From Psammoneis japonica (taxonomy: Eukaryota): DNA of 20,000 bases. How positions within the stretch are numbered: the first letter of the stretch is position 1; the number at the start of each line of letters is the position of its first letter. This document shows positions 1 to 20,000 of this stretch, piece by piece. The position numbers and the translations under genes were made by a program. The notes under the pieces were generated by a model. It was given only the letters and a program-made list of their open reading frames with translations, was not told where the DNA came from and searched no databases. Location: contig QPGO01000258.1 in the NCBI GenBank assembly GCA_008632985.1, forward strand, positions 66,083 to 86,082, in the 5' to 3' direction.

Positions 1-570
1 TGGTGGCAGTTGGAGCCTTCACATGGCTTTTTGCAGAGCCGGTGGTGTGTGGAGCCTTTGTGCTGCCAGCGCTGGTGGCGGCCGGTTTGAGCCTCTGCAG
101 CACTGCTGGACATGGAGCTGGCAGCCTTTGCACACCACTGAGCATGGAGCTGGTGGCAGTTGGAGCCTTTTGCTGTGGAGCTGGTGGTGTGCAGGGCCTT
201 TTTGCTGGCACTTGTGGTGGTTTTAGCCTTCACACTGCTGGGCACAGAGCTGGTGGCTTTGGAGCCTTTGCACCACTGGGCATGGAGCACAGAGTTGGCG
301 CTGTGGCAGTTGGAGCCTTGTTTGTGCCATTGGGAGCAGAGCTGGTGGCAGCTGGAGCCTTTTCACTGCTGGCGCTGGCAGTGGTTGGATTTTTTGCACT
401 GATGCTGATGCTGGCAGTGGCTGCAGCCTCTGGATTGCTGGCACTTGCTGTGTGGCTGGTTGAGGCCTTTGTGTGCTGCTGACACTGGCGGTGGTTGGAG
501 CCTTTGTGCTGCTGCTGGATGCAGAGCTGGTGGTGGTTGGAGCCTTTCTGTTGCTGGGTGGAGCTTTTGA
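1..570 (-). repeat. Degenerate 33-42 bp coding-type tandem repeat (KAPT / Thr-Pro-rich mucin-like), decayed; continues off the left edge
   Basis: Recurring GGTGGCAGTTGGAGCCTT-like units at about 12, 51, 122, 162, 261, 313, 354, 497 and 539. The minus strand reads KAPTAT/KAPTT in shifting frames (ORFs 223..702 and 230..814). Confidence 0.7.
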
Positions 571-2508
571 GCAGCAATTTGGCTGCAAATTGCAGGTTGC
601 TGTCATGCACACATTTCCCTTCTGCAGACATTCTGATGGCAAACACGTGCTCACAGGACATTGTTCTTGCACCTGCTGGAAATGATGCTGCAGTGAACAC
701 AAAACAGGAAAGCAGCTGCAAACTGTTGTGCAATTGTCCCATTTTGTGTTTCTTCATGCTGGGACAATGGATCTTCCCAACCTCCCAAAATTTGCACTTG
801 TGCCCAAAATGCAACTCTCTCCAACATCTGGACCCTCAACCCACAGTGCTCACCTGTCCCTGCACCTGCTTGCCAGCACTGCTGATTGCACTTAGAAGGT
901 TCATCATGCCAGTGCCAGCTCTGACAACATTTTTGAAATTTCCACACCATCCAGCCTCCCACTGTGACCAACACCCTGATGAAACCTGGCAGGCATGCAC
1001 CCCAAGTCATGGAAGGCTAAAAAAAGATTTTTTTGCAGACTTTGCATGTTTCAGGTGCAGCTGCAATCCAATGCTGAACTCAGCTTGGCTCTCAATTTGG
1101 CCACAATTCTGTCAATTGACCAGAAGCAATGTCAAAATGAAGTGCAAGGAGGGGTGTTGCTTGTGTTGTTTCTTCTTTTTGCCTTGGTGGTGCTTGCTTC
1201 CACATGATGTGTGTCATGGAACAATGAAGTTAAAAAAACTCATGGGAAAGTCAATGCAGAGCAAGTGTGTTCTTCAAGTGGCTGTGCACTGTGCCACTTC
1301 CATGCTCTTGCCATCTTGCACACATGCAAATGGACAGAGTCATTGTGTTTGGTGTGATCTGGGATCTTCAAGATGAAAAAATGTGCTGACTGTGGTTCGT
1401 GATTGGAGCAACAAAGGAGGACACATGGAAAAGCCGAGAGAGCAGAAGTGACAACATGGCAAATCCTGGTCAAAAAGAGGCCACAATGCAGCAAAACTTG
1501 GTGTGTCTCTGTCAAATGTGGGCCTTGGCAAAGCAGGCTTCCCTTGCAGCTAGAAACTCTGGGGCAACATGCACAAACTGTCTGATGTCAATGGCCGGCT
1601 TGCTTCAGCCAACTGGGCAGGATTCCGTGTGAGATGCTGGTGAGCGCAGCATGGAGTTCTGCATGTGAGCACATCCTTGAGAGCACAGAGTTGGGAAATT
1701 CAGCTGCTGCTTGGCAAAACAAATCTCTTGCCACCTTGCCAGCACAACACTTTCTTGTTGACATGTTGGCTCTTGGAAATGGCTGAACTCTGTTGTGCAC
1801 AGGGAAGATGTGGTGACAACAGCACAGTGTGGAGGTGACAAAGGTGGGGTGCTGGATGACTTCTTGAACTTTGCCAATCTCCTGAATGAAGTCACCACCA
1901 AGCCACAAGCTTGGTGTCACATTGAGGTTAACAGCCTCTCTGGGGATCTTTTGCAAAAGCTCGGTTTCCAATCAGGAGAGCTTGGGTGCCCAAGAAAAGA
2001 ATGTCCCTGCATTGTTTGTTGAAGCGACATGGCCAATTCAACCAAATCCTTCCAATTGCACCCGCCCCAACTTCGAGTGTCTGATCAGCTTTTTTTTCTT
2101 TTTTTTTTTCATTCAGAGGAGAAGCAGCCACGCTCAGTCTCACAAACAAATTGTCTTGCGACCATGCCATGAGAGAAACACTCAAATGGTGGATGCTTTT
2201 CAGAAGCATTCTTGACAAAAGAGAAGCTGCAATGGCAAGTCCAGTGCCTCTTGCTTGTTGAGGCCCAGCAACAACAACTGGCAGGGACGACATCACGTGA
2301 AACGATCAACTCCCGAATGAAATGCATGCACGTCAGATCTCACAATGATGATGATTGTTCATGATGGCCTCACTTCAGTCTTCGCATGAGCTCACTCTCT
2401 GCTCTGCTCTTGGCAGCTGCTCTCCAGCTCAGTCTGCCAGGTGCACTGTGCCGCATCTCTCCATCTCCAATTCGCGTGTCTCGCTTGATCCTCTCTGCTG
2501 TCTGTGTG

Positions 2509-2781
2509 ATGATTCGCTCTTTGCTCATGTCAGTCACTGTTGCCCTTTTTGGCTTGGCCCATGCTGGGACGAATCCTGAGGGACTGAAGTTTCCAGCCGC
2601 CAAGACACAGGAGGACGGGGTTGTGGAGTTTCCGTCAGGCCTTCTCTGCAAGGAACTTCGTGCTGGAACCGGTCCGTCGCCGAAGATTGACACGCCGTGC
2701 TTTTGCCACTGTGCAGGAACTTTGATCAATGGCACTGAATTTGACAGCTCTTACAAACGCGGGGAGCCGCTCACTTTTGCT
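2509..2781 (+). pseudogene. 5' fragment of a secreted FKBP-type peptidyl-prolyl isomerase (FkpA/Mip-like)
   Basis: Signal-like MIRSLLMSVTVALFGLAHAG, then GVVEFPSGLLCKELRAGTGPSP..CHCAGTLINGTEFDSSYKRGEPLTFA. Similarity stops before the VIxGW half. Conserved Tyr positions read Cys at 2647-2649 (TGC) and 2710-2712 (TGT). Confidence 0.88.
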
Positions 2782-3268
2782 CTGGAAAATGGGAGCTTTG
2801 CATCCCTTCTGAGTCAGGTTGCGGCGACCGTGGCGCTGGGGGGCAGATCCCAGGTGGTGCTGTTCTCGTCTTCACCTTAGAGCTTCTCAAAGTGACGCAA
2901 GACGGACAAGCGGAGTTCTAGAATGCCTCTTGCACCTGCGCGGCCCGCTCAAAACTTGGGTTTGCAGACCACTGCCGGCAGCGCTGTGCTCTAGAGAGAG
3001 GAAGGTCCTGCAGGGCTGTTTCGTCATTTGCACTGTCAGATTCATCAGCCATCAATTTTCGTCTTGTCCAATTGCAAGTCAACATTGCCGCTCTTCCATT
3101 GCGAAACTCATGTCTGCCACATTTCGCCCACCCGCATGTGCTTGTCTGCCAAGTGCCTCCAGGTGGTCATTTCCTGGTGCGTCAGCAACAATGCCCTGAG
3201 GGAAGCTGCCATCTCCAAAGCCATGTTGATGTCCAACCTGACAAAATTGCACATGTTGTCACACTCAC

Positions 3269-4860
3269 CCAATCATTCCATCACTTGTGCATTGAAACAT
3301 TCGACTGACAATCAGAGCGCCAACGCTGCCCAACCCTTTGTGCAAATGCTCTCAAGCAATGAATTCTTGTGGCCACATGGTGCAAAGTGCCACCTTTGCC
3401 AAAGGCCCCCGAGCCATTTGAAGCTGCTCAATTTCAACATCGGAGACTGAAATAGAAAACAAGTTGAGGATGCACAAAACAACACGTGAAAGCTCGGACA
3501 CATTGTCTCCACACTCGAAACAACAACACACCTCCCCCAACTGCTCGAAAAGGCCGAGCGGCAAAGTCCGCACCCGTGCTGTGCGTGTGCAACCAAACAG
3601 ATGCCGCAAGACCACCAGGCTGCGGTGAGTCGATTCCCACCCACCACAAATGTCGGCGTCGCAATCGTCAGGACAAACATGAGGCCACGGCGTGCCTGGT
3701 TCAAACTTGGACAGTGGGCTTTCTGCTTGTTCCAAATCATTTCGAAGGGTTGACAAGGCAACAGCAGAGAGCAACAATGTCAAATGAGCTGCTTCTTGGA
3801 GCAACAAGGAAGGGTCGAATTGCTCCATTGAAGCCATGCTCCGGACAACTGATCTGCCTTTGGAAAGTTGCAAAGCCGTTGTGCGACTCGCGTTGTTGTT
3901 AAGATTTTGGATTCGTCGCCTGCTGCAATGTGCTGCAGCAGTCTTCGAATGGGATCACCGACGGTCCTTTGCGGTTTCCACATTGGCGCATTGACACTCT
4001 GCGCTGGTCTCTGCATTGGAGCATTTGTGCTCTTTTTGGGCCCTTGCATTGACGGGGACTCGAGAGATTCGTTTCGGTCAGATGATTTTGCAACGATGAC
4101 TTGTGGAGGTCTCTGTTGTTGTGGCTGTCTTCACCGTGACGACAATCGCACTCCTCAAAAAGATTTCTTTGCACGATGCCACAGCGACAATTGAACATCA
4201 TGTCCCTGTGCACTTTCAATTTCGTCAAGGTGGTCTTCTAAATCTTGTCGTGTCATTTCATTCAATTGTTCCCGCTCCCGTTTGACAGAGGTTGCCTGTG
4301 GAAATTGCCCAAAGGATGGAGGCTGCGTGCATCTGTCTGACTGCAAATGAAATGCTGCAAGTTCCATGCCAACATCCAACCATTTGGAGTGCATTTGATG
4401 AACGACAGTCACTGCAGCAGACAAAGTGCTGTGAGCGATTGTGCCATGGGTTTTCCAATTGACGACCTCATGCTTGCCTGCTTCCCAATGCTGCAGCAAT
4501 GATGCACCCGACATCAGAGACACCAGACATCAGAGATGTCAAGAAGAGCGGCAAGATGAAAATGAATGTAAGTGCCTTCAACTTTCAATGCATTCCGAGT
4601 TCATTCTCAAGTCTGCACAACAAAAGCGCTGATGCCCAACACCTGCTCACGCGGCAATGAGAAAAGGAAGTTTTGAATGTCAGCAGAAAGGTGAAGGAGG
4701 CAATCAGTGCTCCCATTGGACAGGGGTGATCAAACACTCCATTCCCGCCGTCATGCAGGTCGAAGAAATGGAAAAAGACCGCTGCAGCCTTGAACAGTGC
4801 TGACCCATGCAGTCTCAACAGAGCTTGAAAGCCAAACACACCGCCTTGATGCTTTGTCAT
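3269..4860 (-). pseudogene. 3'-truncated bestrophin-like (UPF0187/RFP-TM type) gene with retained introns
   Basis: ATG at 4860. Motifs LRLHGSALFKA, DHP(C)PMGALIASFTFLLTFKTSFS, (H)WEA|VTVVHQMHSKW, PSLLLQEAAHL..LSAVALSTLRND, AARPFRAVGG|VSDVEI..ARGPLAKVALCTMW.QEFI, SDGMIG. In-frame introns inferred at 4491-4650, 4412-4477 and 3447-3531, with a further donor at 3268. Contains frameshifts and stops. Family call is from memory of diatom homologues. Confidence 0.72.
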
Positions 4861-4959
4861 TGTTGCTGTGGAGTGGGCTTGCACTCTAGAACGATTGTGC
4901 AAATGTGCAAAATGCAGAGGAGAAAGCGCTGTCATTTGCCATTTTCATCATTCCTGCTG

Positions 4960-7086
4960 CGGCTTCTGCGGCAGAGTGTTGGCTTCTAATCCGTCCAAGA
5001 GCTGCGCAGCACCTCGTTTCATTGCAATGCTGCAATCACCGTCGCGGACAACAGTGTCGCATTTGATCAAGAGCGGCTCCAACTCCACCAGTGCCTCAGC
5101 CGCAGCTGCAACCATTGCAGAGGCGGTTGCTTCAAAATTGTCAAGCTCGACGGGCGGCAACTCACTGGTTTCCGCTGTGGCATCAACCGAAACTTCGGGA
5201 AGCTCCGTCAAGGATGGATGAGCGCCATTTTTGTTCCATGCATCACACGGCGACCACAACAAAGCTGTGGTGTTGGCATTGAGCAGCTCCATGACGTTTG
5301 ATGAGGACAGATTCAAGATTGTGACGGACACACCATGCACATCAAATGAAGTCATGCAGCTGCCCACAAAAATGCAAGTCACTGTGCAGCCATGCTGCAT
5401 TTCCAGACAGCCCAAAATGGAGTTGGTCAAGATTGACATTTCAAAGTTAGATGTCCCACCCAAATTGTTGACAAGGACACAGAGATCGTCTCCTTTTTCG
5501 AACATGGGAACGACTGCTTCCAATTCATCGACACACCCACACTTGTGAATCGCACCAACCATCTCCTTTGCAAGTTCCTTGCTTGTCAAAAGCGCGGACT
5601 GCTTCACCCCAGCTTCGCCATGAATTCCGAGGCCAACTTCAATCATGTCATCATCGTCCAGATGATCTTTGACTGCCACTGCACCAGGCACCGTGACTGC
5701 ATCAAGCGCCGCACCCAACGTTCCCATGTGTTTTGCAGTCAGTGCAGCCAGGTTTGCCGCGCCCTGCAAAGATTTCCCTTCGGCAGCAGCTGCTCCTGCA
5801 ATCTTGTGAACAAGAATGGCTCTGGAAATGCCTTGAGCTCCAGGGATGCCCTTGGTTCTCTCCAAGGCCGCATCGTCGGCTGCGACCGCCACTTGGCAGG
5901 AAAGACGGGTTCCAGCCCCAGGTGGGACTTTTTGTGACATTTGCCCCGCAGAATTCCACGTGCGAGCTCTGCAGTTTGTGCTCTGGTTGATGGACATGTT
6001 CACTTTCGACATGAAATGAACAGTCAATTTTGCAGCACATGCACCTCTGTTCGCACTCGAAGTTTTAGATGACACGCCTGCCCTGCGCCATTCTCAAGAC
6101 ACTCGAGAATGGCGCAGAAGAAAAAAATGTCAAAAGTTGTTGAGTGGATCACCCGACAATTGCACTGTAAAATGATGCAAAATTTCGCCAAAATCACGCA
6201 GAAATGTGCATGCGCGACATGCGACGCGCATTCAAAAAACTGTCGATGTCACAGTTCAGCAGGGCGAGGTCCCACCCAGACCTGGAGCGCGTCTGGCTCG
6301 ACCACATGCCGCTCCAAAGTTCAAACGGTCACCAGCGCAGTTCTTCACCACTGGCAGAATGGGGCTTGTTTTCCCACATGAAGCGGCGCGAATTGCAGCC
6401 AAGGCAGCGGCGACAGAGGGAGACGCAAAGATTCCTCCTGGAGTGGCTCCGCTGAGCATGCCGTCGCCTGTCCATCCTGCATGACTCGGCTCATGTCCGC
6501 CGCCGCCACTGAGAATCTGAGCACCCGTTCCAGCCTTCAAGTTGCTCTTGAGCACAACATGATGATTTTTCAATTTCGCGAGGCGAGCGAGTCAGATGTT
6601 GCAATGGCAGGCCAGCAACAAATTCGTCGACAGTGTCGGCTGGATCGCTGGTGATCTTTTTCGGCTTGGGCGATGCGACGCTTTTCTGCTGTGCGAGTTG
6701 AGCCAAACAACACCTGGTCATTTTGCGTGAGGGTCAATCACTGCTGGGAAGACTCACGCGGATGTTCTCAGCAAGAAGCTCCTTTGCACAAGGGCCGTCG
6801 CTCAAGAGCATGGGACAAAAGCTGCGGCCCAACCAACCCGCTGCACGACCTGTCTTGCAAGTCGCAGCCGAGACGGCAAGTTCTTTGAGAATTGCACTCG
6901 CATTGCCCCGCTTGTCAACGACCATGGTGTCGTTGCACACTTTGTTGGAGCTCTTGAAGATGTGCGCTCGAGTGCGGAACAGGAGCCCGCTTGTTGGCGG
7001 GTCATCGCCGAGTGCATTTTGCTCTTGTCGGAACGGCCGGTCAGATGCAAGAATCAGCTCAATGGGAATCAGTTCAACAGAATTCG
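4960..7086 (-). pseudogene. Dihydroxyacetone kinase / triokinase (DAK1 + start of DAK2 domain), frameshifted, interrupted and 3'-truncated, with an upstream non-DAK exon
   Basis: KKITSDPADTVDEFVAGL; SGGGGHEPSHAG..GML..IFASPS; VKN(C)AGDRLNFG; ADD..LVHKIAGAAA; GLGIHGEAG; LVNNLGGTS; DGDC. Frameshift near 6575 and an insertion at 5911-6286. The DAK2 SMGGTSG motif is absent. Intron 6689-6757 joins an upstream exon in frame. Confidence 0.9.
5911..6286. mobile_element. Candidate MITE-like insertion in the DAK pseudogene
   Basis: 376-bp non-DAK block splitting the DAK1 domain. Ends are imperfect 18-bp inverted repeats (TCCAGCCCCAGGTGGGAC vs revcomp TCCAGGTCTGGGTGGGAC, 14/18). A central 13-bp stem hairpin lies at 6083-6117. 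No clear TSD. Confidence 0.55.
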
Positions 7087-7165
7087 CTGGCGATTAGAGT
7101 GCACACAATGTGATAGAAAGACCCGCCATTTTGACAAGCAGAAAGCATTCATTGGCTTCCACAGT

Positions 7166-8197
7166 CAGAAAACGCATCTGCGGCATGGCAAGTGCGGCAA
7201 CAACGGCGGCATGGAAATCTGATTGGACAAACGACGTCAGCTAGCTATGAACTTTGTTCTTCACAACAAGTGATGTTGACATCATTATTGCCCCCCCAGC
7301 ACCTGCCAGCATCGCGCAGGCAGACCCCATGCTGTACAAGTATGGTAGTACGAGTGGTAGCACTCACTCTACACTGGATGAGACGCATCACGTCAAGTAC
7401 TGAAGCCGCACGTAGAATTGTACGTGGAATGAGATGTGGTTTTTTGTGCAAGTCGCCATGGCGGTGTGTGGTTGTTTTGGACAACTTCTATCGACTTTGT
7501 GACTATAGAAGTAGGATCAATCGATAATATGAAGTAGTTATGATATGTGTAGAGAAGGAAATGGTAACGCTTCGCGTACTTCTTTCCAAAATGGACCTGT
7601 TGTATTGCAAGAATTTTCAGGTCTTTTCATGCATCGCAGAAAGCCATGCATAAGGTCCCTAAACTAGATCTCTATGACACAGAAACTACCGTACAGAGTA
7701 ATTTAGATATGGCGGATTGAACGGTGTTATTTGTAAGTTAAATGGTTTTAGAGTAGGTAGACTAAATGGCCCGAGAAGGACGGTGCAAAAATTTCTACTT
7801 GAAAGTTGCTGAAATTGTCCCATAAGAGGGTCGCACATGCATTGAACAAAAAGAGAAACAACACACACATACTAACAAAAATGCTGCGGTTCTAATGGTG
7901 TTATTTTTATGCTCACCAGTCCGAAAGTTGCCGCTGTCATGGGCGGTTCGTGCTGTTTGTGTATCATGATGTTGTGTTGTCTTGCTGAGTCTCCAAGGAC
8001 TCTTGTGAATGTTTCTGTTGAAGTGGAGCGCGAATCGCCACGGCCGGGCGGCGGGGCGGATGGTGGGCGGGGTAAGGATGATGTCATCATTACTTATTGT
8101 GAACAACAAGGTTCTTAGCTGACGTCGTTTATCCAATCAGATTTCCATACCGCCGTTATGACCGCACTTACCATACCGCGGATCGATACGTTTTCTG
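7166..8197. mobile_element. Non-autonomous TIR DNA transposon, Mutator (MULE)-like, 1032 bp
   Basis: TIRs at 7166-7243 and 8116-8197, starting CAGAAAACG. Perfect 9-bp target-site duplication TTCCACAGT at 7157-7165 and 8198-8206. No transposase ORF. A 9-bp TSD with long TIRs is typical of the Mutator superfamily. Confidence 0.88.
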
Positions 8198-8224
8198 TTC
8201 CACAGTTTGCCTGCCGTACACCGC

Positions 8225-8403
8225 GAGGAATTTTGTGTCTCGGAGGAATTTTGTATCTCGGAGGAATTTTGTGTCTCGGAGGAATTTTGTATCTCGGAGG
8301 AATTTTGTATCTCGGAGGAATTTTGGGTCTCCGAGACACAAAATTCCTCCGAGACACAAAATTCCTCCGAGATACAAAATTCCTCCGAGACACAAAATTC
8401 CTC
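8225..8403. repeat. Palindromic array of 18-bp repeats: 6 forward + 4 inverted copies
   Basis: GAGGAATTTTGTRTCTCG at 8225, 8243, 8261, 8279, 8297 and 8315 (last copy variant). CGAGAYACAAAATTCCTC at 8332, 8350, 8368 and 8386. Symmetry centre about 8332. Confidence 0.97.
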
Positions 8404-8424
8404 CGTCCTCCGTGAACCGATACC

Positions 8425-9118
8425 GAGATGACGCAGCGGCGACCCATGCTCGGCGTTGTTTGAGCTATTCTTCGTCGTTTTCGTTCATTAAAGACACGGA
8501 TATTACTTTTAGGAGGTCGACTTATTAGATGAGGTCCTTGGTTTGGCGAGAAACGGTGTTGTGGTTGTGTAGAAATCAAAAGATGGGTCTTTTTGCTTTT
8601 GTCAGCCATTTCTGAGCGGCAAAACCCATGCTCGGATGTTTAATCGCTCATTTCACTTCATCTGATGACTATCTTTGCTGGTATCGACTGACCATAGTCA
8701 CGAAAAGTTTTCCATGTCTTGGGTATGCTGTGAGTGGGGGCTGTGTCGAGAAACATCGTTCTCTCGTATCGACAAGAAACACCAAAAAGCATGGAATTGA
8801 CACGATCCATACTTTGATGGTTATTCGTTCAATACACCTTTTCTGTTGTGTACCTTTGCCTGGATCTCTTTGTTATAGATACGAAAATCATCTCCTGTCT
8901 TGTGTATGTTGTCTGTTTGATTTGTGGAGAGAAATGTCGGTCACACTCGTGTGGTCTCATGTCGGCATTTTGTGATTATCGCTGACCCATGCTTTGATGT
9001 TTATCCGTTCATTTCGTCTCTTTACTCACACTTCTTAGATTAAATCATTACTTTATAGCTACAAAAAGATTAGTCTGTCTTGGACATGCCTTCGGTGTGG
9101 TCTGTAAAGCGCAAGTGT
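8425..9118. repeat. Left arm of a long inverted repeat, composed of diverged ~180-bp units
   Basis: Reverse complement of 9720-10410 over about 690 bp, with scattered substitutions and long identical tracts (e.g. about 8652-8785). Motif (G/A)AYCCATRCT at 8441, 8623, 8804 and 8984. Confidence 0.95.
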
Positions 9119-9719
9119 CATTCACAACACAACTGCGACATGCACCGACGCCTCTCCTCGCTTTCCGACAATACATTTTCCCGTTTGTCTAATCTATTTG
9201 GACACTAATTGAGTCATATAATAGAATGATAATAGAATGGTAATACCAAGCATGTTCTTCTTTTATCTGAAGCTATTGTTTCCTTGTTCTCCATGGTAGC
9301 ATCATTCTGGATTCTCCTCGGCTGGTCGTGCATCCGTGAGTCGAATGAAGTCCGTAATCCTCATTTTGTTCAACATCAGCTCGTTCACTAGAAGAATCAT
9401 GAGCAGAGCCGGAGGAGTCGCTTGATGGGCTGCAAGTGCTTTTGATTTTGATATTGACAAAAGGACCCCGATTCTCCTCGTCAGCACTAGCAGAACTCGC
9501 AGGAACGGTGTCGGTGCTTTCCTCGGCGGACGTGTCCGCAACAGCCTTTGCTTGGCATTTCTTGGTGGATCTATTGTGCTTCCTTGTATTTTGGTTGAAC
9601 TCTTCCTCTTCTTTTCATGATTCCTCTGCTTCTCGTTGCTTTGGGACAGCATGCGCTTGCGGGGAGCTTTATGACTGAAGCTTGCGCATCGCTTGTGTTG
9701 ATGTTGGACGGTGTGCTCC

Positions 9720-10410
9720 ACATTGCTCTTCACAGACCCCACCAAAGGCAAATACAAGACAGTATAATCTTTTCGTAGCTAAAAAGAAGAGATTCGATTA
9801 AAGAAGTGTGAGTAAAGAGACGAAATGAATGAATAAGCATCAAAGTATGGGTCGGTGTCAGTAAAAAAAAAGACACGGGACCACACGAGTGTGACCGACA
9901 TTTCTCTCCACAAAACAAACAGACAACATACACAAGACAGGAGATGATTTTAATATCTATAATAAAGAGATAACAGCAATGGTACACAACAGAGGAGGTG
10001 TATTGAACGAATAACCATCCAAGTATGGATCGTGTCAATTCCATGTGTTTTGGTGTTTCTTGTCGATACGAGAGAACGATGTTTCTCGACACAGCCCCCA
10101 CTCACAGCATACCCAAGACATGGAAAACTTTTCGTGACTATGGTCAGTCGATACCAGCAAAGATAGTCATCAGATGAAGTGAAAGGAACGAATAAAGATC
10201 AAAGTATGGGTTTTGCCGCTCAGAAATGGCTGACAAAAGCAAAAAGACCCATCTTTCGATTTCTACACAACCACAACACCGTTTCTCGCCAAACCAAGGA
10301 CCTCATCTAACAAGTCGACCTCCTAAAAGTAATATCCGTGTCTTCAATGAATGAAAACGATTAAGAATAGCTCAAACAAGGCCGAGTATGGGTCGGCGCA
10401 GCGTCATCTC
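9720..10410. repeat. Right arm of the long inverted repeat, directly upstream of the kinase gene
   Basis: Mirrors 8425-9118. Motif AGTATGG(G/A)T ends near 9853, 10031, 10212 and 10394. The arm ends about 165 bp before the kinase ATG. Confidence 0.95.
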
Positions 10411-10573
10411 CAAAAACACAACTTGAAACTTCACGTTCCCAACAAAAAGTCTCTCCGCGCTAAAAAAATAAATCCCACGGATCGCGCGAAAAGCAATAAC
10501 ACGGGTTGCGATTGGCGCCGCTGCTGCACCTACCTGCCGAAGGGAAAAGGGAACAAAGCCAACAGCCAAGACG

Positions 10574-13500
10574 ATGGCACCAGCCACACGCAACACTACA
10601 AAGACTCCAAGGAAGAGCAACGCTCGCAGTCGTTCTCATCATGCCCCAGCGACGACTCTCCGGGCAGTGACAGCGCAAGACTTTGTCAGCAGTCCAAATG
10701 ATGCAGAGCTGGCGCTGCTTCCCGCTGCGGTTGCTCGTGCCTTGACCGACCTTGCTTTCGACGCAGCTTCTACGGCGACACCGCGCAGGAAACGACGCAG
10801 CACTGGTGCTGCTGGTACGTCCAAGACCATCGCCTTGAATGGTTTGACTGAACAAAAGCTCCGAGCCTTCATCAACAGTGCGTCCAAGCTTGATGGTCCT
10901 TTGGTTGCAGCATTGGAGCGTCTAGCGGAAGAGGAAGGTATCCATGGGATGCTCGAAGATTGCGATGTCAAGAAGACGGCGGTCTTTCGTGACTGGCACA
11001 CTGCCTACGTGACAGACCCGGAAAGCGAACAGGCGGAACAATACCGTCGTTTTGAGCTGATGCAGTTTGCAACCAAGAACATGAAACGCGTCAAAGGACG
11101 CGTAGCCAATACTTTTGCGCCTATCGGAAGCAGGGAATGCACCACGCAAGAACTTTCCCGTTATGCCACATCCCTTGTGATGCTCCTACGCGACGCTGCC
11201 TTACTCCCTCGCGAAAATGTCGACTCGGACACCGATGGTTCGTGCGACGGCAGTTGCCGTGAAGAACTCTTGTGCCGAGTGGCTCGCTTCATTATGTTTA
11301 ATGGCATCTTGATCAGCGACTTCGAGAACTTTGACACTCACCACGGTCGACGCCGGCCTAGTCTGTACACACAAGTCTTCATCCAAAGTGGGCTAGCCTT
11401 GCCGGAAGGCCTGGATTACTCAGAAATTGACGACAAGGATGACCAGTGCGATCCGTTTGACCTGGACTTCAAGCAAAAGTGCATCAGTCAGCTCTTGATG
11501 GTTCTCTTTGGTGGCAATGACTGTGCCACGCCTTTTGTCAAGCGCGTGTATTCCTATTTCAAAAAGGTCTGGGAGCTGCAGCACTCTAGCAAGCTTAGCT
11601 CACGCATGGCAGGAGCAACTCTTTTCGAACAGCGCAGCATGTTTATACATCAATTTCTCCTCTGGGGTAGCGAGGAGGAGGACGATACCTTGGGGAATAC
11701 ATCTTCAGCAAATGTGCCCTCGATCGATGAGTCGATTGCGTCGTTGGTTGCTTCGTCGCTGTCGTTTGATACCGATGACCATCCATCGGCGAATGCGTCG
11801 ATTGGTGGGGTTACGGCGGTGTCGTTAAGCCCAGCCTCGACACGCAGTATTGTGCACAGTAGCAGTGGTACTAGCGATGGTTGCAAGACCCCTGGAAGTT
11901 CCAACGGCAATAGAACTCCTCTTGCCATGCTCAAGGGCGCCATTGAAGAGCTTGTTGCGGATCCGTTCAACAAGAAAAAGTATTCTGAGGTCGCCGTGTG
12001 TGCTTCCAAATGCTATCCCCAGCGCAGCTTGCTCGTGGGATACGAGTTTCCGGACCCCGCCAGTCCAGCCGCCAAAGAAACTAGCAAGTTGCTTCGAGCA
12101 GCATGTCCGGCGACAAAGGTGGAGGAGCCGGTCCGTTTGAGCAAGGCCGAGAGCACGTTTGTGGATCAACTGCACAATCTCAAAAAGACGGACAAGAACC
12201 TTCCTGATATTCAGTTCATTCGCACCCTATTTCCACTCATTCAGAGTGCTGACCAGTTCTACAACACTGGGGGCATTCTCGAAAAACGGCTTGTCCAGTC
12301 CCACATCAAGGCGCTTCCAGTGGATTCCAGTATCAGTAATTTTGCTGATACTTTTGCTCCGTCCGCCGCGCAGGCCGCATCAGGAGGGGACGAGAATGAA
12401 TATGATGCTGTGGAAAACACCGACGAATTAAGCGACGACGACGATATCGAAACAGCGAATGCCTTACCAGTCGCTCCAACGCACACCCCTGCTGGTGTGC
12501 TAGGCAATCTGGAAGTTTTCAACTTCATTAAATCCTGCAAGGAGGACCGTCGCGAGGAAGTAAAGGATGGCAAAGTGGTTTACGAAAACGTCTTTTCCCC
12601 GGAAGTCCAGGCATTGTTGGGAAAAAGCTATCAAAAACCGGGGAAGAGCGAGGAGGAGCAGGCGTGCGCTGGATATCGCATGAACCAGGATGACCTAAAG
12701 CTTGTCCGCTTCGTCGATCACGGAGCCATGGGTTTTGTCTTTATGGCCAAGCACCAGTCTGGCAAGCTGGTGGTGGTCAAGTATGAGTGGTTTCATCCGT
12801 GGGATGTTGGCGACTATCTCATTCGAGTTCTCGTAAACCATTCCCTGGTCAACTACAGCCCTCACGTCATGACTCTTTCTGACTGGTTTGTTGTTATGTG
12901 CGATGGCACAGCGTTGAAGCAGAAGATTAGGGGTGGAGATAGACTCGAACGCAAGTGTATGATGATTGCTCTTGTCGCTGAGTGGTGCCCCGGTGGGAGC
13001 TTCAAAGCTGCTGTCAAGAAGCGTATCGAGCTTGGATCCCTCAGCATGGGCTGGGTTCTAGAACACGCAATTCAGCTTACCCAGGCGCTTCGCTGCTTCA
13101 AGCGACACAATATTGTCCACCGTGATCTGAAGCCAGCCAATATTCTGATCGGGTCTGACGGTAACGTGAAGATTGCCGACTTTGGCCTTGTTCGCAAGTC
13201 TACTCGGGGTCAAGAGAGTGGCACCCGTGGAGCTGGAACTCCTGGATTCCGCAACCATGCTGGGGTAGTGTATGGCAAGTACGACTCTAACACGGATGTT
13301 ACTGCCCTTGGTTACACCCTCCGCGAACTGTTTTTACAAGGAGACGAAGAGGGCTCAACCAAGGAAATGACGGCTGACGAGGTGGCTGGCGCAGAGGCTG
13401 CAAAGCAAGAGGCATTCACACCGCAGCAAATGGAAGAGGTCATCTCGAATAGTGAAAGCAACAAGGAAGCCCTGAAAGCGTTCCATGAGCTCATTCAAAG

Positions 13501-13597
13501 CATAATCGTCGAAAGTGATGCAACCCGCATCTCAGTGGAGGAGCTTGAGCGCGCACTCGAAAAAATTCGTGAGACGGTGTTGGAGAGCGCTGAATAG
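10574..13597 (+). CDS. 1007-aa intronless protein with a C-terminal eukaryotic protein kinase domain (about 12690-13570) and an unassigned ~700-aa N-terminal region
   Basis: Uninterrupted ATG..TAG ORF with normal TA/CG content and Tyr codons. Kinase motifs: DHGAMGFVF (G-loop), VVVK, HRDLKPANIL (13118), KIADFG (13178), GTPGF, DVTALG. Confidence 0.93.
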   Translation: MAPATRNTTKTPRKSNARSRSHHAPATTLRAVTAQDFVSSPNDAELALLPAAVARALTDLAFDAASTATPRRKRRSTGAAGTSKTIALNGLTEQKLRAFINSASKLDGPLVAALERLAEEEGIHGMLEDCDVKKTAVFRDWHTAYVTDPESEQAEQYRRFELMQFATKNMKRVKGRVANTFAPIGSRECTTQELSRYATSLVMLLRDAALLPRENVDSDTDGSCDGSCREELLCRVARFIMFNGILISDFENFDTHHGRRRPSLYTQVFIQSGLALPEGLDYSEIDDKDDQCDPFDLDFKQKCISQLLMVLFGGNDCATPFVKRVYSYFKKVWELQHSSKLSSRMAGATLFEQRSMFIHQFLLWGSEEEDDTLGNTSSANVPSIDESIASLVASSLSFDTDDHPSANASIGGVTAVSLSPASTRSIVHSSSGTSDGCKTPGSSNGNRTPLAMLKGAIEELVADPFNKKKYSEVAVCASKCYPQRSLLVGYEFPDPASPAAKETSKLLRAACPATKVEEPVRLSKAESTFVDQLHNLKKTDKNLPDIQFIRTLFPLIQSADQFYNTGGILEKRLVQSHIKALPVDSSISNFADTFAPSAAQAASGGDENEYDAVENTDELSDDDDIETANALPVAPTHTPAGVLGNLEVFNFIKSCKEDRREEVKDGKVVYENVFSPEVQALLGKSYQKPGKSEEEQACAGYRMNQDDLKLVRFVDHGAMGFVFMAKHQSGKLVVVKYEWFHPWDVGDYLIRVLVNHSLVNYSPHVMTLSDWFVVMCDGTALKQKIRGGDRLERKCMMIALVAEWCPGGSFKAAVKKRIELGSLSMGWVLEHAIQLTQALRCFKRHNIVHRDLKPANILIGSDGNVKIADFGLVRKSTRGQESGTRGAGTPGFRNHAGVVYGKYDSNTDVTALGYTLRELFLQGDEEGSTKEMTADEVAGAEAAKQEAFTPQQMEEVISNSESNKEALKAFHELIQSIIVESDATRISVEELERALEKIRETVLESAE

Positions 13598-14934
13598 TCG
13601 GGTTGGTCTCGGTTGTTTGGTCTTTCTTGTTTTGATGAATAGTGAGGAAGGAGTCGGACTCGACGCCATCGCATTCGTAAATCGGTGTTGATCCTCCTGG
13701 CTATCAGTCGTTCCTTTTCCGTCATCTGTGGGACTTGGAGGACGACAACTAGACGGGATTTCTTAGAACAAATACACAAATACAGAGTAGAAAAAGGGTT
13801 CTTCTCATCATGTTACATTCTTTAGGCTCTTGTTGACCATCGTTAGTAGGAGAGTGCGTGTGCGTAACTCTGTTGCAGACGATCGACACCTTGGCAAGGT
13901 TGGGCTAAGGCATGCTCTCAAGAATCTACTCTCAGACGACAACAGAGGATCGTCTTCAGTCTCTAGCTAGAGTGTCCAACGAAAGTAGAGGCAGCACCAA
14001 ATTCAATGTGGGCCAGCAGCGCGTCAGACTTTGAGAACTCAAATTCTAGGTGGCAAACGACGGCAGGAGCACACCCTGCTTGGCAACGCACAGCAGGCGC
14101 TCAGCAATGCAACGAGTCCATCAACAAGAAGTCTCCTCAGAGGATGGTTCAAGTGGCACACTCTCTTGTGGCAACAAGATCTCATCATTGTGTTGCTGAT
14201 CTTTTGTTTCTGGGTTGGACGACTGAAGTGCTCATTGCTGGAACTGATTGTGCAACAAGCACGTGACAGAACTCTGGCAACTCAGGCATTTTTGACACAC
14301 TCAGTTGTTCCACAGGGCATTGAAGCACAGTGTGGCACTTTGGTCAGTGCTTTCCTGATGCAGGTTCAACTCCTGTGCATGTCACACTGCTGGACACGCA
14401 GGATCTCTGTCAGTGCAATGCTGAGTCACAGAGCACAGTGGGCTGTTCTTTCAGAGCCACTGTGGATTGCTTCTGACAACTGCTGAAGTCAAAGACAGCT
14501 GGCAATGACTGTGGAAGGTGCTGTTTGTGCAACACAGTCCTTTGCAGCACTTGGGCTTTGCGGGCAGGTGGGAAAGAAGAAAACAGTGCGGTGCTTCTTC
14601 TTGACATTTCAACAACAACAAACTCTCTTGAAGCTGTCTCAAGAAGGAGCAGGTCTGAAAGCAGTTTTAATCACAGACACCGTCTCTTTGACACGTGCAT
14701 TGTCAAATCCATGAACTGCCATTGATGTGAAGTGAGGAAAGAAAGGATGGAGCCGACCCTCACAGAAGATTCTTTGCCGAAATGGAAAACAAACAACAAG
14801 ATGATGAGATCAATCCTGGGGGCAGTGACAACATTGACATTGAGGTTGGCATTGACAAATTGGGAAGAACACCGCAGCTCACATGGTTGCGGGATCCATT
14901 CGAAGCAGCAGTGGTTGCGACATGGACTTTTCAA

Positions 14935-14994
14935 TTGTTGACTCCATGCTGAATTCAGCCAAGTTTGTTGACTCCACACTGAGTTCAGCTGAGT
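14935..14994. repeat. Two tandem 30-bp copies
   Basis: TTGTTGACTCCATGCTGAATTCAGCCAAGT / TTGTTGACTCCACACTGAGTTCAGCTGAGT. Confidence 0.8.
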
Positions 14995-17900
14995 CAGAGT
15001 CTGAAGACTTGGTCAAGACCCAGATGATCAAGATGAATCTGCACAGTCACCAACACCTAAGACGTTGCCCAACCACACCAAATCTTGACCCATCCCTGAG
15101 TCCCACACAGCATCCACAGGCTTCTTTGCTCCCACTGCAACCAATGCAAACAGCTGTTGCCAGTTCCCAGAAAGTTTGGGCTCTGCCTTTTTGAGAAGTG
15201 TTCTCAATCCCACAGTGAGCGCATTCAACAACACACACCTGCCACACACACCTCCGGCCACAGAAACTTCACATGAAACATCTCATTTTGGCAAATGCAC
15301 TTGATCGAAGAGTGCCTTGGGGCATCTTCATTCTGCTTTGGAGCATCTTGAAGAATGAGATTTGTTGGATCAACAAACCAAGGGTGTTGTCAGAGATTTG
15401 GTTGATGTTGGAGATGAAGAGCTTGGAATTGATGTGATGTGAACAAATGCTGCACTCTTGTTCTTGTCCTCCCTTGATGGGACAGGCAATCTCATTGTCA
15501 CTGCTGTCATCATTGGATGATGCAGAAGCAGTGGCAGTCCTTCTGGTCCATCAGGAAATTCCCTTCCACCAAATGAAAATCCAATGTTGCAGCCATCGTT
15601 GCTTTGCTCCACACAAGTGCCACTGTTTTGCTTCTCCTGTTGTTGCTCTTTGGGTTGCTTGTCCTCTGTGGCTGTTCTTGCTGCGTTCTCTTTCTTGGAA
15701 TGGCATTCAAACTTGTTGTGGGCTTCAACAATGTTGATCACATGGTCACAGGTTTTTGTGGCTTTTTTTTTTTGCAGTGCCGGCACAGAAGTCATCATTG
15801 GAGCTGGAATCGCCTGCACCTTTTGAGCTGAATCCTCCCCAACTCCCATCACACTGACACCCAGTTGACACACATGCACAAAAGACAATGACACTTGAGC
15901 AATGCCAGTTGGAGGCAACACAGAGGGAATGAGTCATCTTGCTGGAGATTTGATGCTGAAAGGTTGCTTTGCATTCTTTGGTGTTGGTGTGGATCAAAAG
16001 AACAGACTGGAGCAAGGCACAGTGAATCACAGCTTGTCTTGAAACAGCTGCTGGCGTGGGCATTGTGACAATTGCATCCAAACCTGGCAGGTGCAACACA
16101 CCAGCACATTTGTCTTGAATGGCATGTCCATGTGCATGTTTTGAAATGCACTTGGAACACACAGCAACCAGAGCTGAACAAAAGTTGGGGAAAGGAGCAA
16201 ACTGGCCAAAAATTGACTGTGTTCAGTGTGCAAACATGGGGTCAGAGATTCATTGGCTTCTTCTTTGTCATCTGGGGTGGTTGCTGCAGACACATCAGTG
16301 CACATTGCAGCTGCAGGGTGACCATGTGACACAGAGTGGTGTGTGCTGCCAAGCTGAGCACCCCAGACTGGCTTTGAGCCAAGCCCAGGGCACCAGCTGC
16401 CAGCTCCCTCTGCCCCACCCCCCCAGCAGGTGCTCTCCTCTTGCAATGTGGTTTGGCTGCTCAAGCTGCACCACACACTGACTCAAAGGCTGCACTTGGG
16501 AATGGCTGGGGAGAACAAAAACTTGCAAGCTTGGCTGCTTGCTTCAGACCTTTTGCTGGCAAGCAAAAGCTTGTGAGAAAAGACCAGCGGGTGCTGCAGC
16601 ACCATGAGCAGAGGAGAGTTGTCACCACTGGTGCATTTCAGGTCAAGTGCTTGGCATGCTCAATGACTCCTGGACCCAACCTTGCCAAGATCTTCTTCAC
16701 TTTGAACCACACAAGCAGGGGCAGAGGTTTGTTGGCTCTTTGTCATCCAGGGTGGCTGTGCCTCCAAGATGCTGCTCTGCTCTCTTTGCTGAGGGAGGCT
16801 CCCAGCTGCTCATGGGTCATGTGCACTTTGGGGGCATGTCGCTTGATTTGCAAATTGTGTCATGCTCCTTGCCCACAACTGTGTGGTGTGCCCAATGTGC
16901 CAGTGCATTGGCTGGGCACGTGACAAACTTTCATGCTTGTCTGTGGCTGGCAAAATGCCATTGAGCTTCCCACTTGCTTTTTTGAATGCTGCTGTCAACA
17001 TGTCACAAGTCAAGCCCAGCTCACTGTGAGAAGCACTTCCAGTGGGCTGTTGCTTGGGAGCATTTGTGGTTGTCTCACATTGTGTGTTGGCCAGCAAAAA
17101 TGGGTGCTCTCCTGTTTGCAGCAACAAGCAAGGTTGTGTGTCAATGATGAGGGGGAAAGCCTCTCTTGCTGTCACCACCACACAACAAAACAATTTCTCT
17201 GGTTGCATCTCCATCAAGGGGTTGACAGAGCCAAATTGGCTCTGTTGCTTTTCACAGGTGTGCTGCCAAGGCAAACTGAGGGCAGGCAACTCATGCATTT
17301 GCACATTGAACAGGCAGAGGCAATTTTGGACATGAGAGAAATGGCATGTTCGAAAGCATTTTCTGCTTGTCATTCAAACCATTTTGCAACTGCCACAGCA
17401 TGGGGCACCAACAGGAGCTCCTGTCATCTCTGGCTTTGGCCAGGGATCTTTGCAGTTGTGCTGACCCTCAAGCCAGCACTCTTGTCTGAGAGGGGCAGTG
17501 GTGTGTGGGGTTGGGCAGTCCAGCCAGCTTGCTTGTGCTCTCTTGATGGCACAAAGTGCTCTCATGGCAGCAAGGTGGGAGCAACTTTTGTGAGTTGTGA
17601 GCTGGGCTGGTGCTCTGGAGGTCTAAGTGCACCACTGGGAAGCTGTGCAGGAAGAGCTCAGTGCTGCCACCATGGTCAGAATCATGGGCCTGTTGCCCCA
17701 TGTCTTGTGATTCTGGGAGTGCTCACAACTCCCAGGTTTGATGTGTCAACTGGCAGCTTGGAAAACAGCTTGAATTGCAACACCTGACATTTGGGTGGTG
17801 CTGTTGTTCCCAAGAGCTGGGGGGAGGGAACAGGCAGAGAAAGGTTTTGCAGGTGCTGCTTTGTCAATGGTTGGGGACACAGCTTGGACTCTGGACTTTC

Positions 17901-19337
17901 TCAGGATGGAAGCAGCAGGTGCAGCAACAGAAGATGCCTTTGTGACAGAGGAGTGGCTGATGGACAAAGCCTGAGCACAGAGAACTGTCCACTCCAGCTC
18001 AAGCAAGCAACACGCTCCAAAGGCGATGCTGCATGTGTGTTCATGCACCAACATGCTTCAAGCTGAAAGTCATGAAAAATGCCATCAGCCTCTCAAACAG
18101 CTGCAGTGTGGGGGTCAAACCACAAATGTGCCATTTGAGAGTCCAAGGCTCAAAACAAGAGTGGCACATCAACTCTCTTCTCATTTTGTGCATTCAAGAA
18201 CCCCTTGTTCTTCACAAGTCTTTTGCACATGCTTGCTTCTGTTGATTCAAGGGCAAAGAGAGGAGTCACTTCTTGTTTCTTTCTTCCAGTTTTGGTTGTC
18301 GGGCAGTGTTGCAATCTTCATTTTCACAATTTGGAAATTGGCAAAATCAATCACTGCTTGTTTGTCTGTTTGCCATTTTGTGTCTCTGCAGCAAAAAGCA
18401 CTGCAAGACCACAGTCCTTAAAAAATTGTTTTGCCACAAGCTCCAAATTGTTTCACCAATTTTGGTGCTTTGAAACATGTTGAGCATTCACTCAACTCAG
18501 CTGAGTCCCAGTTTTTGGTAGATGCAAAATCACGAATGTCAAACAAATGGCTGATTTCAACATGAAGCTCCCCAAGTTTAACCCCCTTGTGAACATGCAC
18601 TTCAGAGCTTGTGGCCATGATGCACAAAAGCATGCTTTTGTTGTTGTCATGTGTCAAGAAAAGCTGACACATCAAAGTTCAGCACAAGGGTGGAGTGCAA
18701 ATTAATTTGTGCATTCATTGCCTGGATTGCACCAATGATGTGACAGCAAAAAGTGACAGTGAATCTACACTCACAATCAATTGACTTTTCTGCATTGCTT
18801 AGAATTTGAAATCTGACCACTGAGCATTTGGCTCTCTTTGTGCCAAAGTGGAAATGACACTTGACAATTTGCACTGTTCATTTGGCTCAAAGTCAAATGA
18901 AGCATTTGGGTCATCACAGGCTCATTGTCACATTCAGCCACAATCATGAAGTCTTTGCCAATGCCTGCTTTGCAACTTTGAGCAATCCCTCTGTCACAAA
19001 TTCAAAAATGTGTTTTGTCAAAGTGAAGATCAACAAAATCACATTGTTGCCCTGATGAATGAATGCAAGTTGGGGTCAAGAAATCCAGGCGTCAAGAAAT
19101 CCATGACAGCTGGCTGAGAGATGGATCATTCTTCAAAAGGGAGAGATCAGGAGTGTTTCATTTCTCTTCTTGTTGTGCCACTCAGAGCCTGCTGTCTGCT
19201 GCACAGGTTGGTGCCCCAAAAGGATGAAACAATGATGTCAACAAGAAGACAAGCAGTCATGCATGAAGAAAGATGAGTGCAGCCAGAGAAGTTGTTTCTT
19301 GCCATGTGTGTGAGCACAGCAAATGTGAGCACGAGCC

Positions 19338-19884
19338 CAAAACAAAACCCAAAATCTGTGTTTAAGGTGCTGCTGCACTTCTGCCCTGCAACTCCAGCAT
19401 CAAGCTGGCCCACACCCCCAGCGCACAATCAGTGTGGCAGGGGCACACAGCAACTGGCTAACAACATCAACACTGCTGCCAGGTGAAGCAATTGGCAACA
19501 GTGCACATGCCTCTTGCAGCAAGACATTTGGCTTCTCAAATGCTGGACTTGAACATGGGGCAAACCATGGTCAACTAATTTTGCAGTCTGTGTGTTGAGT
19601 GAGTCGAGTCAAAACAAAACCCAACATCCATTTTTAAGGTGCTGTTGCACTTCCGCCCAGCAACTCTGGCAACAAGCTGGCCCACACCCCCAGCACACAT
19701 GTGTGCGACAGGGGCATGCAGCAATCAGCCTAGACCAGCATCACCATCAGGTGATGCCACACCAAAACAACTGGCAATTGCACAAGCGCCCCTTGCTGTC
19801 AGCCTCTTCACTTCCTTCATGCTGGATTTGAACATGGGTCTTGCCATTTCCAACCAATTGTGCAGTCTGTGAGTTGAGTGAGTC
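19338..19884. repeat. Diverged tandem duplication of a ~270-bp unit
   Basis: Copies at 19338-19605 and 19610-19884 share CAAAACAAAACCCAA, TTTAAGGTGCTG, CAAGCTGGCCCACACCCCCAGC, ATGCTGGAYTTGAACATGGG and TGCAGTCTGTG.GTTGAGTGAGTC. Confidence 0.85.
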
Positions 19885-20000
19885 ATGTGTTCATCCATGT
19901 GGGCACCTCAAACTTTGAAGCACGGTGAACTGCAGCCAAGTTGTCAAGGCACAGGTCGCTTCCCAGAGGAAAGCCCGCAAGACAATGTTCCATCACCCAA

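What the first reader, a model, noticed from the sequence alone, without database searches (positions are those of the whole stretch)
1..7240. TAY loss and CpG loss are two separable layers with different extents
Seen: about 2300-7240 has almost no TAY but retains abundant CpG. In contrast, about 1-2000 and 14400-20000 lack both. On the right flank TA disappears at about 13990, slightly before CpG does. Established: 5mCpG decay gives TG/CA. Inference: the A>G process is faster or earlier than, and mechanistically independent of, CpG deamination. The proximal block was recruited more recently, giving an age gradient.
Basis: partly seen in the sequence, partly recalled or inferred. Interest (0 to 1): 0.7.

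Follow-up and report, generated by a model that had tools for sequence, protein, structure and literature searches.

The report
Fast TA erasure, slower CG decay
In this stretch of diatom DNA, dead gene copies have had nearly every TA letter pair rewritten to TG or CA, while their CG pairs decay more slowly and only inside the TA-erased zones, so an unusual DNA-mutating process runs ahead of ordinary methylation-type decay.

Summary
Observation confirmed, with corrections. All TpA is lost, not only TAY (o/e 0.04-0.05 in 1-7240 and 13991-20000; 0.57 between); the survivors are mostly YTAR. CpG o/e is 0.11 (1-2000), 0.66 (2300-5903), 0.93 (6294-7240), 0.97 (island) and 0.09 (15001-20000). The host is a diatom. 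The CpG-keeping block holds broken FKBP, bestrophin and dihydroxyacetone-kinase copies. Other copies in sequencing contigs show TA>TG/CA and CG>TG/CA directly, and a mass balance reproduces each zone, so source composition does not explain the pattern. TA loss leads: FKBP piece 11 TA lost/4 kept against 2 CG lost/29 kept; repeat pair 8/1 against 2/7. The layers are nested, not shown independent: 0 of 80 bins lose CG but keep TA. A single block-age gradient is not supported: one DAK copy lost CpG in its 3' part but little in its 5' part, and the flanks could not be dated. Closest known: TpA hypermutation in Bigelowiella natans (2026 preprint, which never mentions CpG). This scan already noted TpA erasure and the TA-first pattern elsewhere in this genome.

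The parts
1..2000 (.). Zone A: TA erased and CpG decayed (o/e 0.05 and 0.11). Degenerate repeats of about 42 nt at 1-560; otherwise unidentified.
   Evidence: Another copy has CG at 3 of the 4 listed differences in 1830-1842. No Pfam or representative hit.
2386..3022 (+). Broken FKBP-type peptidyl-prolyl isomerase copy, 52 nt shorter at 2782/2783 than the other copy. TA mostly lost, CpG mostly kept.
   Evidence: PF00254 E 1.5e-07. 40 differences in 545 nt from an X2 contig; 27 listed, 11 TA-type and 2 CG-type. 4 TA and 29 CG remain.
3267..4867 (-). Broken bestrophin-family copy that keeps its intron (3447-3531, GT..AG), so it is a DNA-level duplicate.
   Evidence: 30 homologues, most with PF25539 and several named bestrophin. 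Conserved Tyr read as Cys/His at 3 of 4 positions; conserved Arg 10 CGN kept, 3 lost. Intron ends; an X2 contig skips the intron.
4972..5903 (-). Dihydroxyacetone kinase pseudogene, 3' part. TA erased; CpG about 30-55% decayed.
   Evidence: PF02733 E 5.7e-47; about 55% identical to diatom proteins. 6 of 7 conserved CGN Arg lost; C|G junctions 8 kept and 5 G>A, against 1 of 51 after other bases.
5904..6293 (.). MITE-like insertion inside the DAK copy, so younger than that copy. TA erased (2 in 390 nt), CpG o/e 0.94.
   Evidence: Two other DAK contigs skip it (joints 5903>6293/6294). Imperfect terminal inverted repeats. Loose ends of other copies carry TA where the window has CA/TG (table 7). 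Composition.
6294..6670 (-). Dihydroxyacetone kinase pseudogene, 5' part. No TA left; CpG nearly intact.
   Evidence: PF02733 E 2.3e-24. 0 of 11 visible CpG losses at conserved codons; one DNA-level CG>CA at 6331. CG o/e 0.89.
7166..8197 (.). Repeat element with inverted ends of about 140 nt that straddles the domain edge. The left end is TA-converted up to 7290; the right end is not.
   Evidence: in 141 aligned nt, 8 TA>TG/CA all in the left copy, 1 TA shared; 2 CG lost, 7 shared.
7241..13990 (.). Island with both dinucleotides kept: 18-nt palindromic array (8225-8405), foldback element (8425-10410) and an intact 1007-aa kinase ORF (10574-13597, +).
   Evidence: The foldback arms show 8 TA-type and 8 CG-type of 34 transitions, with 8.4 and 8.3 expected.
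13991..15000 (.). Right edge: TA gone at once, CpG tapering (o/e 0.38, then 0.30).
   Evidence: CG:GC against 15001-20000, p = 3e-05.
15001..20000 (.). Zone D: TA erased and CpG decayed (0.04 and 0.09); unidentified; old tandem duplicate at 19325-19884.

Best explanation
Silent domains of this diatom genome carry two mutational processes on the same target. A fast, recurrent TpA-directed A:T>G:C process (TAY preferred, YTAR most resistant; most likely adenine deamination in DNA by a TadA/ADAT-type enzyme, which is inferred) clears nearly every TA soon after DNA enters the domain and stops at a sharp edge. A slower C:G>T:A decay, most likely from 5-methyl-CpG, follows inside the same domain. 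Its depth depends on cumulative methylation exposure, meaning time in the domain and also position, so it is weak in recently added pieces and within 1-1.3 kb of the edges. Shown: direction of both changes, nesting, TA ahead of CG. Inferred: the enzyme, methylation, and time as the cause of the deeper CpG loss in the flanks.
For: Nesting: 0 of 80 bins are CG-low with TA kept. Direction: of 40 listed differences to other copies, 11 are TA>TG/CA and 8 CG>TG/CA in the window, 3 are CG in the window only, 0 are TA in the window only. Mass balance: converting 95% of TA and 90% of CG in island sequence gives TA 0.03, CG 0.11, TG 1.87, matching zone A (0.05, 0.11, 1.89) and 15001-20000 (0.04, 0.09, 1.87); 20-30% CG matches 2300-5903; TA alone (CG 0.85, TG 1.42-1.46) comes close to 6294-7240 (0.93, 1.44). 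Order: FKBP piece 11/4 against 2/29 (p = 6e-06; p = 0.015 if all 13 unlisted differences were CpG); boundary pair 8/1 against 2/7 (p = 0.015). The nested insertion lost TA and kept CpG. Recurrent action: 0.5% transitions plus 0.5% transversions would add about 7 non-YTAR TA to 15001-20000, where 2 exist. Precedents: TpA>TpG/CpA hypermutation measured in B. natans; DNMT5-dependent CG methylation of diatom transposons; TadA-derived editors leave TA-motif A>G changes genome-wide.
Against: No methylation data, no genome and no candidate enzyme. Only 40 of 779 difference rows were shown, and contexts were rebuilt from those rows alone. Whether the other copies are alleles or paralogues, and whether each is itself unmutated, is not known. 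The flanks are undated. TAY against RTA polarity is 8 against 3 informative sites by my count, not significant (p = 0.23). Eight non-TA differences in 2526-6340 also run A/T>G/C in the window against two the other way, so a weaker non-TA activity could create CpG and mask decay.
Confidence: 0.62

Rival explanations
1. One reading: two fully independent processes, with CpG depth set only by block age, so 2300-7240 is one younger block.
For: The step at 2000-2280 is abrupt. The FKBP piece has about 1-2% transversions from its other copy (7 of 27 listed), against 30 in 278 nt between the tandem copies at 19325-19884. The nested insertion keeps CpG.
Against: One DAK copy has two CpG levels. The FKBP piece beside zone A is among the least decayed. 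CpG also tapers over about 1 kb on the right edge. CpG loss never appears without TA loss. The tandem pair dates a duplication, not entry into the domain.
Confidence: 0.2
2. One coupled pathway: the TA process comes first and licenses or extends methylation (or both are outputs of one silencing complex), so CpG decay is its downstream consequence.
For: Strict nesting; both changes end in TG/CA; CpG loss lags at both edges.
Against: Diatom CG methylation has a known maintenance enzyme, DNMT5a, with no TpA mention in that paper. Nesting follows equally from a shared target and unequal rates.
Confidence: 0.13
3. The CpG differences reflect the composition of the source sequences, or the pattern is an assembly artefact.
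For: Intact diatom-like DAK coding regions span CG o/e 0.71-1.12 in 8 of 8 loci examined, overlapping zone B's 0.68-0.89. All contigs laid at 6878 read G where the window has A.
Against: None of those 8 loci approaches 0.1 for CG or 0.05 for TA. Short-read contigs match the depleted window with 0 differences over 1075, 515 and 411 nt (records 1, 5, 2). Another copy has CG at 3 of 4 listed differences in zone A. The TG/CA excess matches the loss.
Confidence: 0.05

Closest known systems
TpA>TpG/CpA regional hypermutation in Bigelowiella natans (Mettrop et al., bioRxiv 10.64898/2026.01.13.699255)
   Same: Same substitution, same dinucleotide, both strands, confined to regions, leaving TpA-poor and TG/CA-rich tracts.
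   Different: There: integrated giant-virus and virophage DNA in a rhizarian, rate measured, TpA still 3.3% in the main region, no mention of CpG, diatoms or a trinucleotide preference in the main text. Here: a diatom, the identified victims are host-gene copies and MITE-like DNA, TA is about 92% gone, YTAR survives best, and CpG decay is nested inside.
5-methyl-CpG decay in methylated transposons; diatom DNMT5a CG methylation (PMC9998398)
   Same: CG>TG/CA, graded, in repeat-rich DNA.
   Different: Cannot produce TA>TG/CA. Methylation was not measured here.
Repeat-induced point mutation (RIP) of ascomycete fungi (features recalled; described briefly)
   Same: Regional, near-saturating, dinucleotide-specific transitions in repeated DNA.
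   Different: Opposite polarity (RIP makes TpA from CpA). Here one copy is hit and the other spared, and a closely linked 688-nt inverted repeat is untouched.
Engineered TadA adenine base editors (PMC13225742)
   Same: Genome-wide A>G/T>C with a TA-motif preference.
   Different: Laboratory enzymes; no natural diatom counterpart was searched or found here.

Membership tests
B. natans-type TpA hypermutation | TpA>TpG and TpA>CpA on both strands | tested here: met
   11 of 40 listed differences, both kinds; 8 of 8 TA changes in one direction in the boundary pair
B. natans-type TpA hypermutation | Confined to regions, with TpA depletion and TG/CA excess | tested here: met
B. natans-type TpA hypermutation | Targets viral or other foreign DNA | tested here: inconclusive
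   Identified victims are host-type genes and a MITE-like insertion; zones A and D are unidentified
B. natans-type TpA hypermutation | About 1000-fold raised rate in mutation-accumulation lines | not testable with these tools
   Only indirect: TA loss 3-20 times CpG loss in the FKBP piece and about 9 times in the boundary pair
B. natans-type TpA hypermutation | ADAT2-like candidate deaminase in the host | not testable with these tools
   No genome held
5mCpG decay | CG>TG/CA with matching TG/CA excess | tested here: met
   8 of 40 listed differences; conserved codons; mass balance
5mCpG decay | Cytosine methylation at these CpG | not testable with these tools
   No methylation data; known for transposons of another diatom
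Fungal RIP | C:G>T:A at CpA, raising TpA | tested here: not met
   TpA falls to 0.04-0.05
Fungal RIP | Triggered by homology, both copies mutated, linked repeats hit hardest | tested here: not met
   One end of the 7166-8197 element hit, the other not; foldback arms at background level
Fungal RIP | Premeiotic timing, RID/DIM-2 dependence | not testable with these tools
   No data

The most novel reading that the evidence does not exclude
Diatoms have a chromatin-guided DNA adenine-editing system that recurrently erases TpA from silenced domains, including duplicated host genes. It acts ahead of and beyond CG methylation decay, and possibly marks the front along which methylation later spreads. 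The TA/CG ratio would then be a two-speed clock of silencing history, and the system, shared with a rhizarian, may be old within the SAR supergroup.
Probability: 0.35. Interest if true: 0.85.

Novelty: new variant of a known kind. Interest (0 to 1): 0.58.

Why it matters
Only one report of natural TpA-directed A>G hypermutation of genomic DNA turned up in my searches, and it does not address CpG. This locus shows the same signature in a diatom, acting on host-gene copies, and orders it before CpG decay with internal controls. That separates it from methylation damage and from RIP, tells experimenters where to look (edges where TA is gone but CpG is intact), and makes the link between the unknown adenine mutator and DNMT5 methylation testable. 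A natural DNA adenine deaminase acting in chromatin would also interest base-editing work.

Tried and rejected
No whole genome is held, so no genome-wide copy comparison or enzyme search was possible. Zones A and D stayed unidentified: Pfam on 54 stop-free segments found only the DAK 5' part convincingly; the three minus frames of 13990-20000 gave 0 families (plus frames only as stop-free segments); phmmer of 700-1971 gave 0 hits; the Atlas gave no usable hit for 15373-15933. The flanks therefore could not be dated. The kinase N-terminal 720 residues had no homologue and the exact protein is not in the collection. No RNA holder was listed. X2 contigs skip a GT..AG intron and look like transcripts, but contigs show presence only, so I claim nothing about silence or expression of either copy. 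No synteny: 8 of the 80 fetched loci (L001-L008, the closest by identity) match the window only at DAK; the other 72, mostly about 40% identical, were not used. No TA-depleted tract was seen in the 5 of those loci profiled. Rfam gave 0 matches. A homology trigger as in RIP was rejected (foldback arms at background level). A TAY-only rule was rejected (5 of 11 TA changes in the FKBP piece are at YTAR, by my reading). Paper searches found no description in diatoms; the library lacks most subscription journals. The Epithemia genome paper (PMC12377750, passages) says nothing on dinucleotides.

Full report
Observation. Profiles in 500-bp and 250-bp bins and by zone confirm the pattern. TpA o/e is 0.04-0.05 in 1-7240 and 13991-20000 and 0.57 in 7241-13990. 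CpG o/e is 0.11 in 1-2000, 0.66 in 2300-5903, 0.93 in 6294-7240, 0.97 in the island, 0.38 and 0.30 in 13991-14400 and 14401-15000, and 0.09 beyond. Change points are 2280 and 14120 for CpG, and 7240 and about 14060 for TA (last island-type TA at 13986). Of 80 bins, 31 lack both, 22 lack TA only, 27 keep both and none lacks CpG only. The loss is of all TpA. Per kb, depleted zones against island: RTAY 0 against 11.8, RTAR 0.38 against 9.3, YTAY 0.15 against 9.9, YTAR 2.2 against 7.5. This fits a TAY preference. Polarity (TAY rather than RTA) is favoured 8 to 3 by my count of informative sites, which is not significant.

What is there. The host is a diatom: named DAK hits include Seminavis, Nitzschia, Mayamaea and Fragilaria proteins at 48-55%. 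Zone B holds a broken FKBP gene, a broken bestrophin-family gene that keeps its intron, and a DAK pseudogene split by a 390-nt MITE-like insertion that two other DAK contigs lack. The island holds an 18-nt palindromic array, a foldback element and an intact kinase ORF with no homologue for its N-terminal part. Zones A and D could not be identified.

Direction. Contigs of one sample (three runs, one study; possibly the source of the assembly, so not independent) were laid on 600-8200. They contain the depleted sequence itself, with 0 differences over 1075, 515 and 411 nt, so it is not an assembly artefact, and also other copies 7-16% different. The tool showed 40 of 779 difference rows. Of these, 11 are TA in the other copy and TG/CA in the window, 8 are CG in the other copy and TG/CA in the window, 3 are CG in the window only and none is TA in the window only (contexts rebuilt from listed rows only). 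In zone A, 3 of 4 listed differences are CpG losses. Converting 95% of TA in island sequence plus 0, 20-30 or 90% of CG approximates the TA, CG and TG values of 6294-7240, 2300-5903 and the flanks respectively. Intact DAK coding regions of 8 related loci have TA 0.41-0.62 and CG 0.71-1.12: zone B's CpG level alone could be native, but the flanks' could not.

Order. In the FKBP piece (2478-3022), 11 TA are lost and 4 remain, while 2 CG are lost and 29 remain; 27 of 40 differences were listed. Fisher p = 6e-06, or 0.015 if all 13 unlisted ones were CpG losses; the rate ratio is 3 to 20. The inverted ends of the element at 7166-8197 give a second control: 8 TA changed, all in the left copy and up to position 7290, 1 shared; 2 CG changed, 7 shared (p = 0.015). 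The domain edge thus cuts through an element. The insertion in DAK, younger than its host copy, has lost TA and kept CpG. The near absence of non-YTAR TA in old DNA implies recent or repeated action: 0.5% transitions plus 0.5% transversions would add about 7 such sites to 15001-20000, where 2 exist, although the tandem copies there differ by 30 transversions in 278 nt.

Against a simple age gradient. At conserved codons the DAK 3' part shows 12 visible CpG losses and 14 kept sites; the 5' part of the same copy shows 0 and 11 (p = 0.007), though one DNA-level CG>CA lies at 6331. Bestrophin is intermediate (6 lost, 15 kept). The FKBP piece, next to the CpG-free flank, is among the least decayed. 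CpG rises weakly towards the island across zone B (rho 0.48, p = 0.03, 20 bins) and tapers over about 1 kb at the right edge. CpG depth therefore reflects both piece-by-piece history and position. The flanks remain undated, so 'older' is inference. Because CpG loss never occurs outside TA-erased DNA, independence of targeting is not shown; only the chemistry and rates differ. A caveat: eight non-TA differences in zone B run towards G/C in the window against two the other way, so a weak non-TA A>G activity may add CpG.

Not RIP-like in its trigger. The foldback arms (688 aligned nt, about 600 nt apart) show 8 TA-type and 8 CG-type changes among 34 transitions, with 8.4 and 8.3 expected.

Mechanism. 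Best reading (0.62): a fast, recurrent, sharply bounded TpA-directed A>G process, probably DNA adenine deamination (inferred), and slower 5mCpG decay (inferred from the spectrum and from diatom DNMT5 biology), both on the same silent domain. Rivals: strict independence with block age only (0.2), obligatory coupling (0.13), composition or artefact (0.05).

Literature seen. bioRxiv 10.64898/2026.01.13.699255: parts 1-3 of 5 (abstract to conclusion) and a term search (CpG 0, diatom 0, trinucleotide 0). Its supplements were not visible and may hold flanking-base context or CpG values. PMC9998398: passages (DNMT5a loss removes CG methylation, mainly on transposons; TpA 0). PMC13225742: passages. 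PMC12377750: passages, not relevant. Searches found no diatom report; sought the editor precedent. RIP features are recalled, apart from the short description. Earlier notes of this scan record TpA erasure and TA-before-CG on other pieces of this genome; they are leads, not support.

Verdict. A real feature. The two layers are separable and ordered but nested; the age gradient is unproven and too simple. New variant of a kind described once, in another lineage. Interest 0.58.

Noticed in passing
window 8425-10410: Foldback-like element: arms of about 690 nt, 90% identical, built from units of about 180 nt, with both TA and CG untouched although it is a long linked inverted repeat.
   Followed up: partly
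window 8225-8405: Palindromic array of 18-nt units, about six forward then four reversed.
   Followed up: no
window 10574-13597: Intact, intron-free 1007-aa ORF with a C-terminal protein kinase domain and an N-terminal 720 residues without homologues; it sits between two TA-erased domains.
   Followed up: partly
window 6878: All three X1 contigs, including the near-identical one, read G where the window has A at a CpG: either CpG decay still segregating or an assembly error.
   Followed up: no
window 5903-6294: Two other DAK contigs lack the insertion but differ from each other at the junction in a way that fits independent TA and CG changes, so at least one may also be a mutated copy; three DAK versions exist in the sample.
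   Followed up: no
window 7239-7247: A 4-nt duplication in the left inverted end, absent from three X1 contigs; it supplies two of the first TA at the domain edge and may be newer than the TA erasure.
   Followed up: partly
window 1-560: Degenerate repeats of about 42 nt that read on the minus strand as Ser/Thr/Ala/Pro-rich units, like a surface-protein tail.
   Followed up: no
window 2087-2110: T-rich run close to the CpG step between zones A and B; may mark a junction.
   Followed up: no
window 19325-19884: Tandem duplicate of about 275 nt with 5 TG/CA discordant sites, showing decay resolved independently in each copy after duplication.
   Followed up: partly
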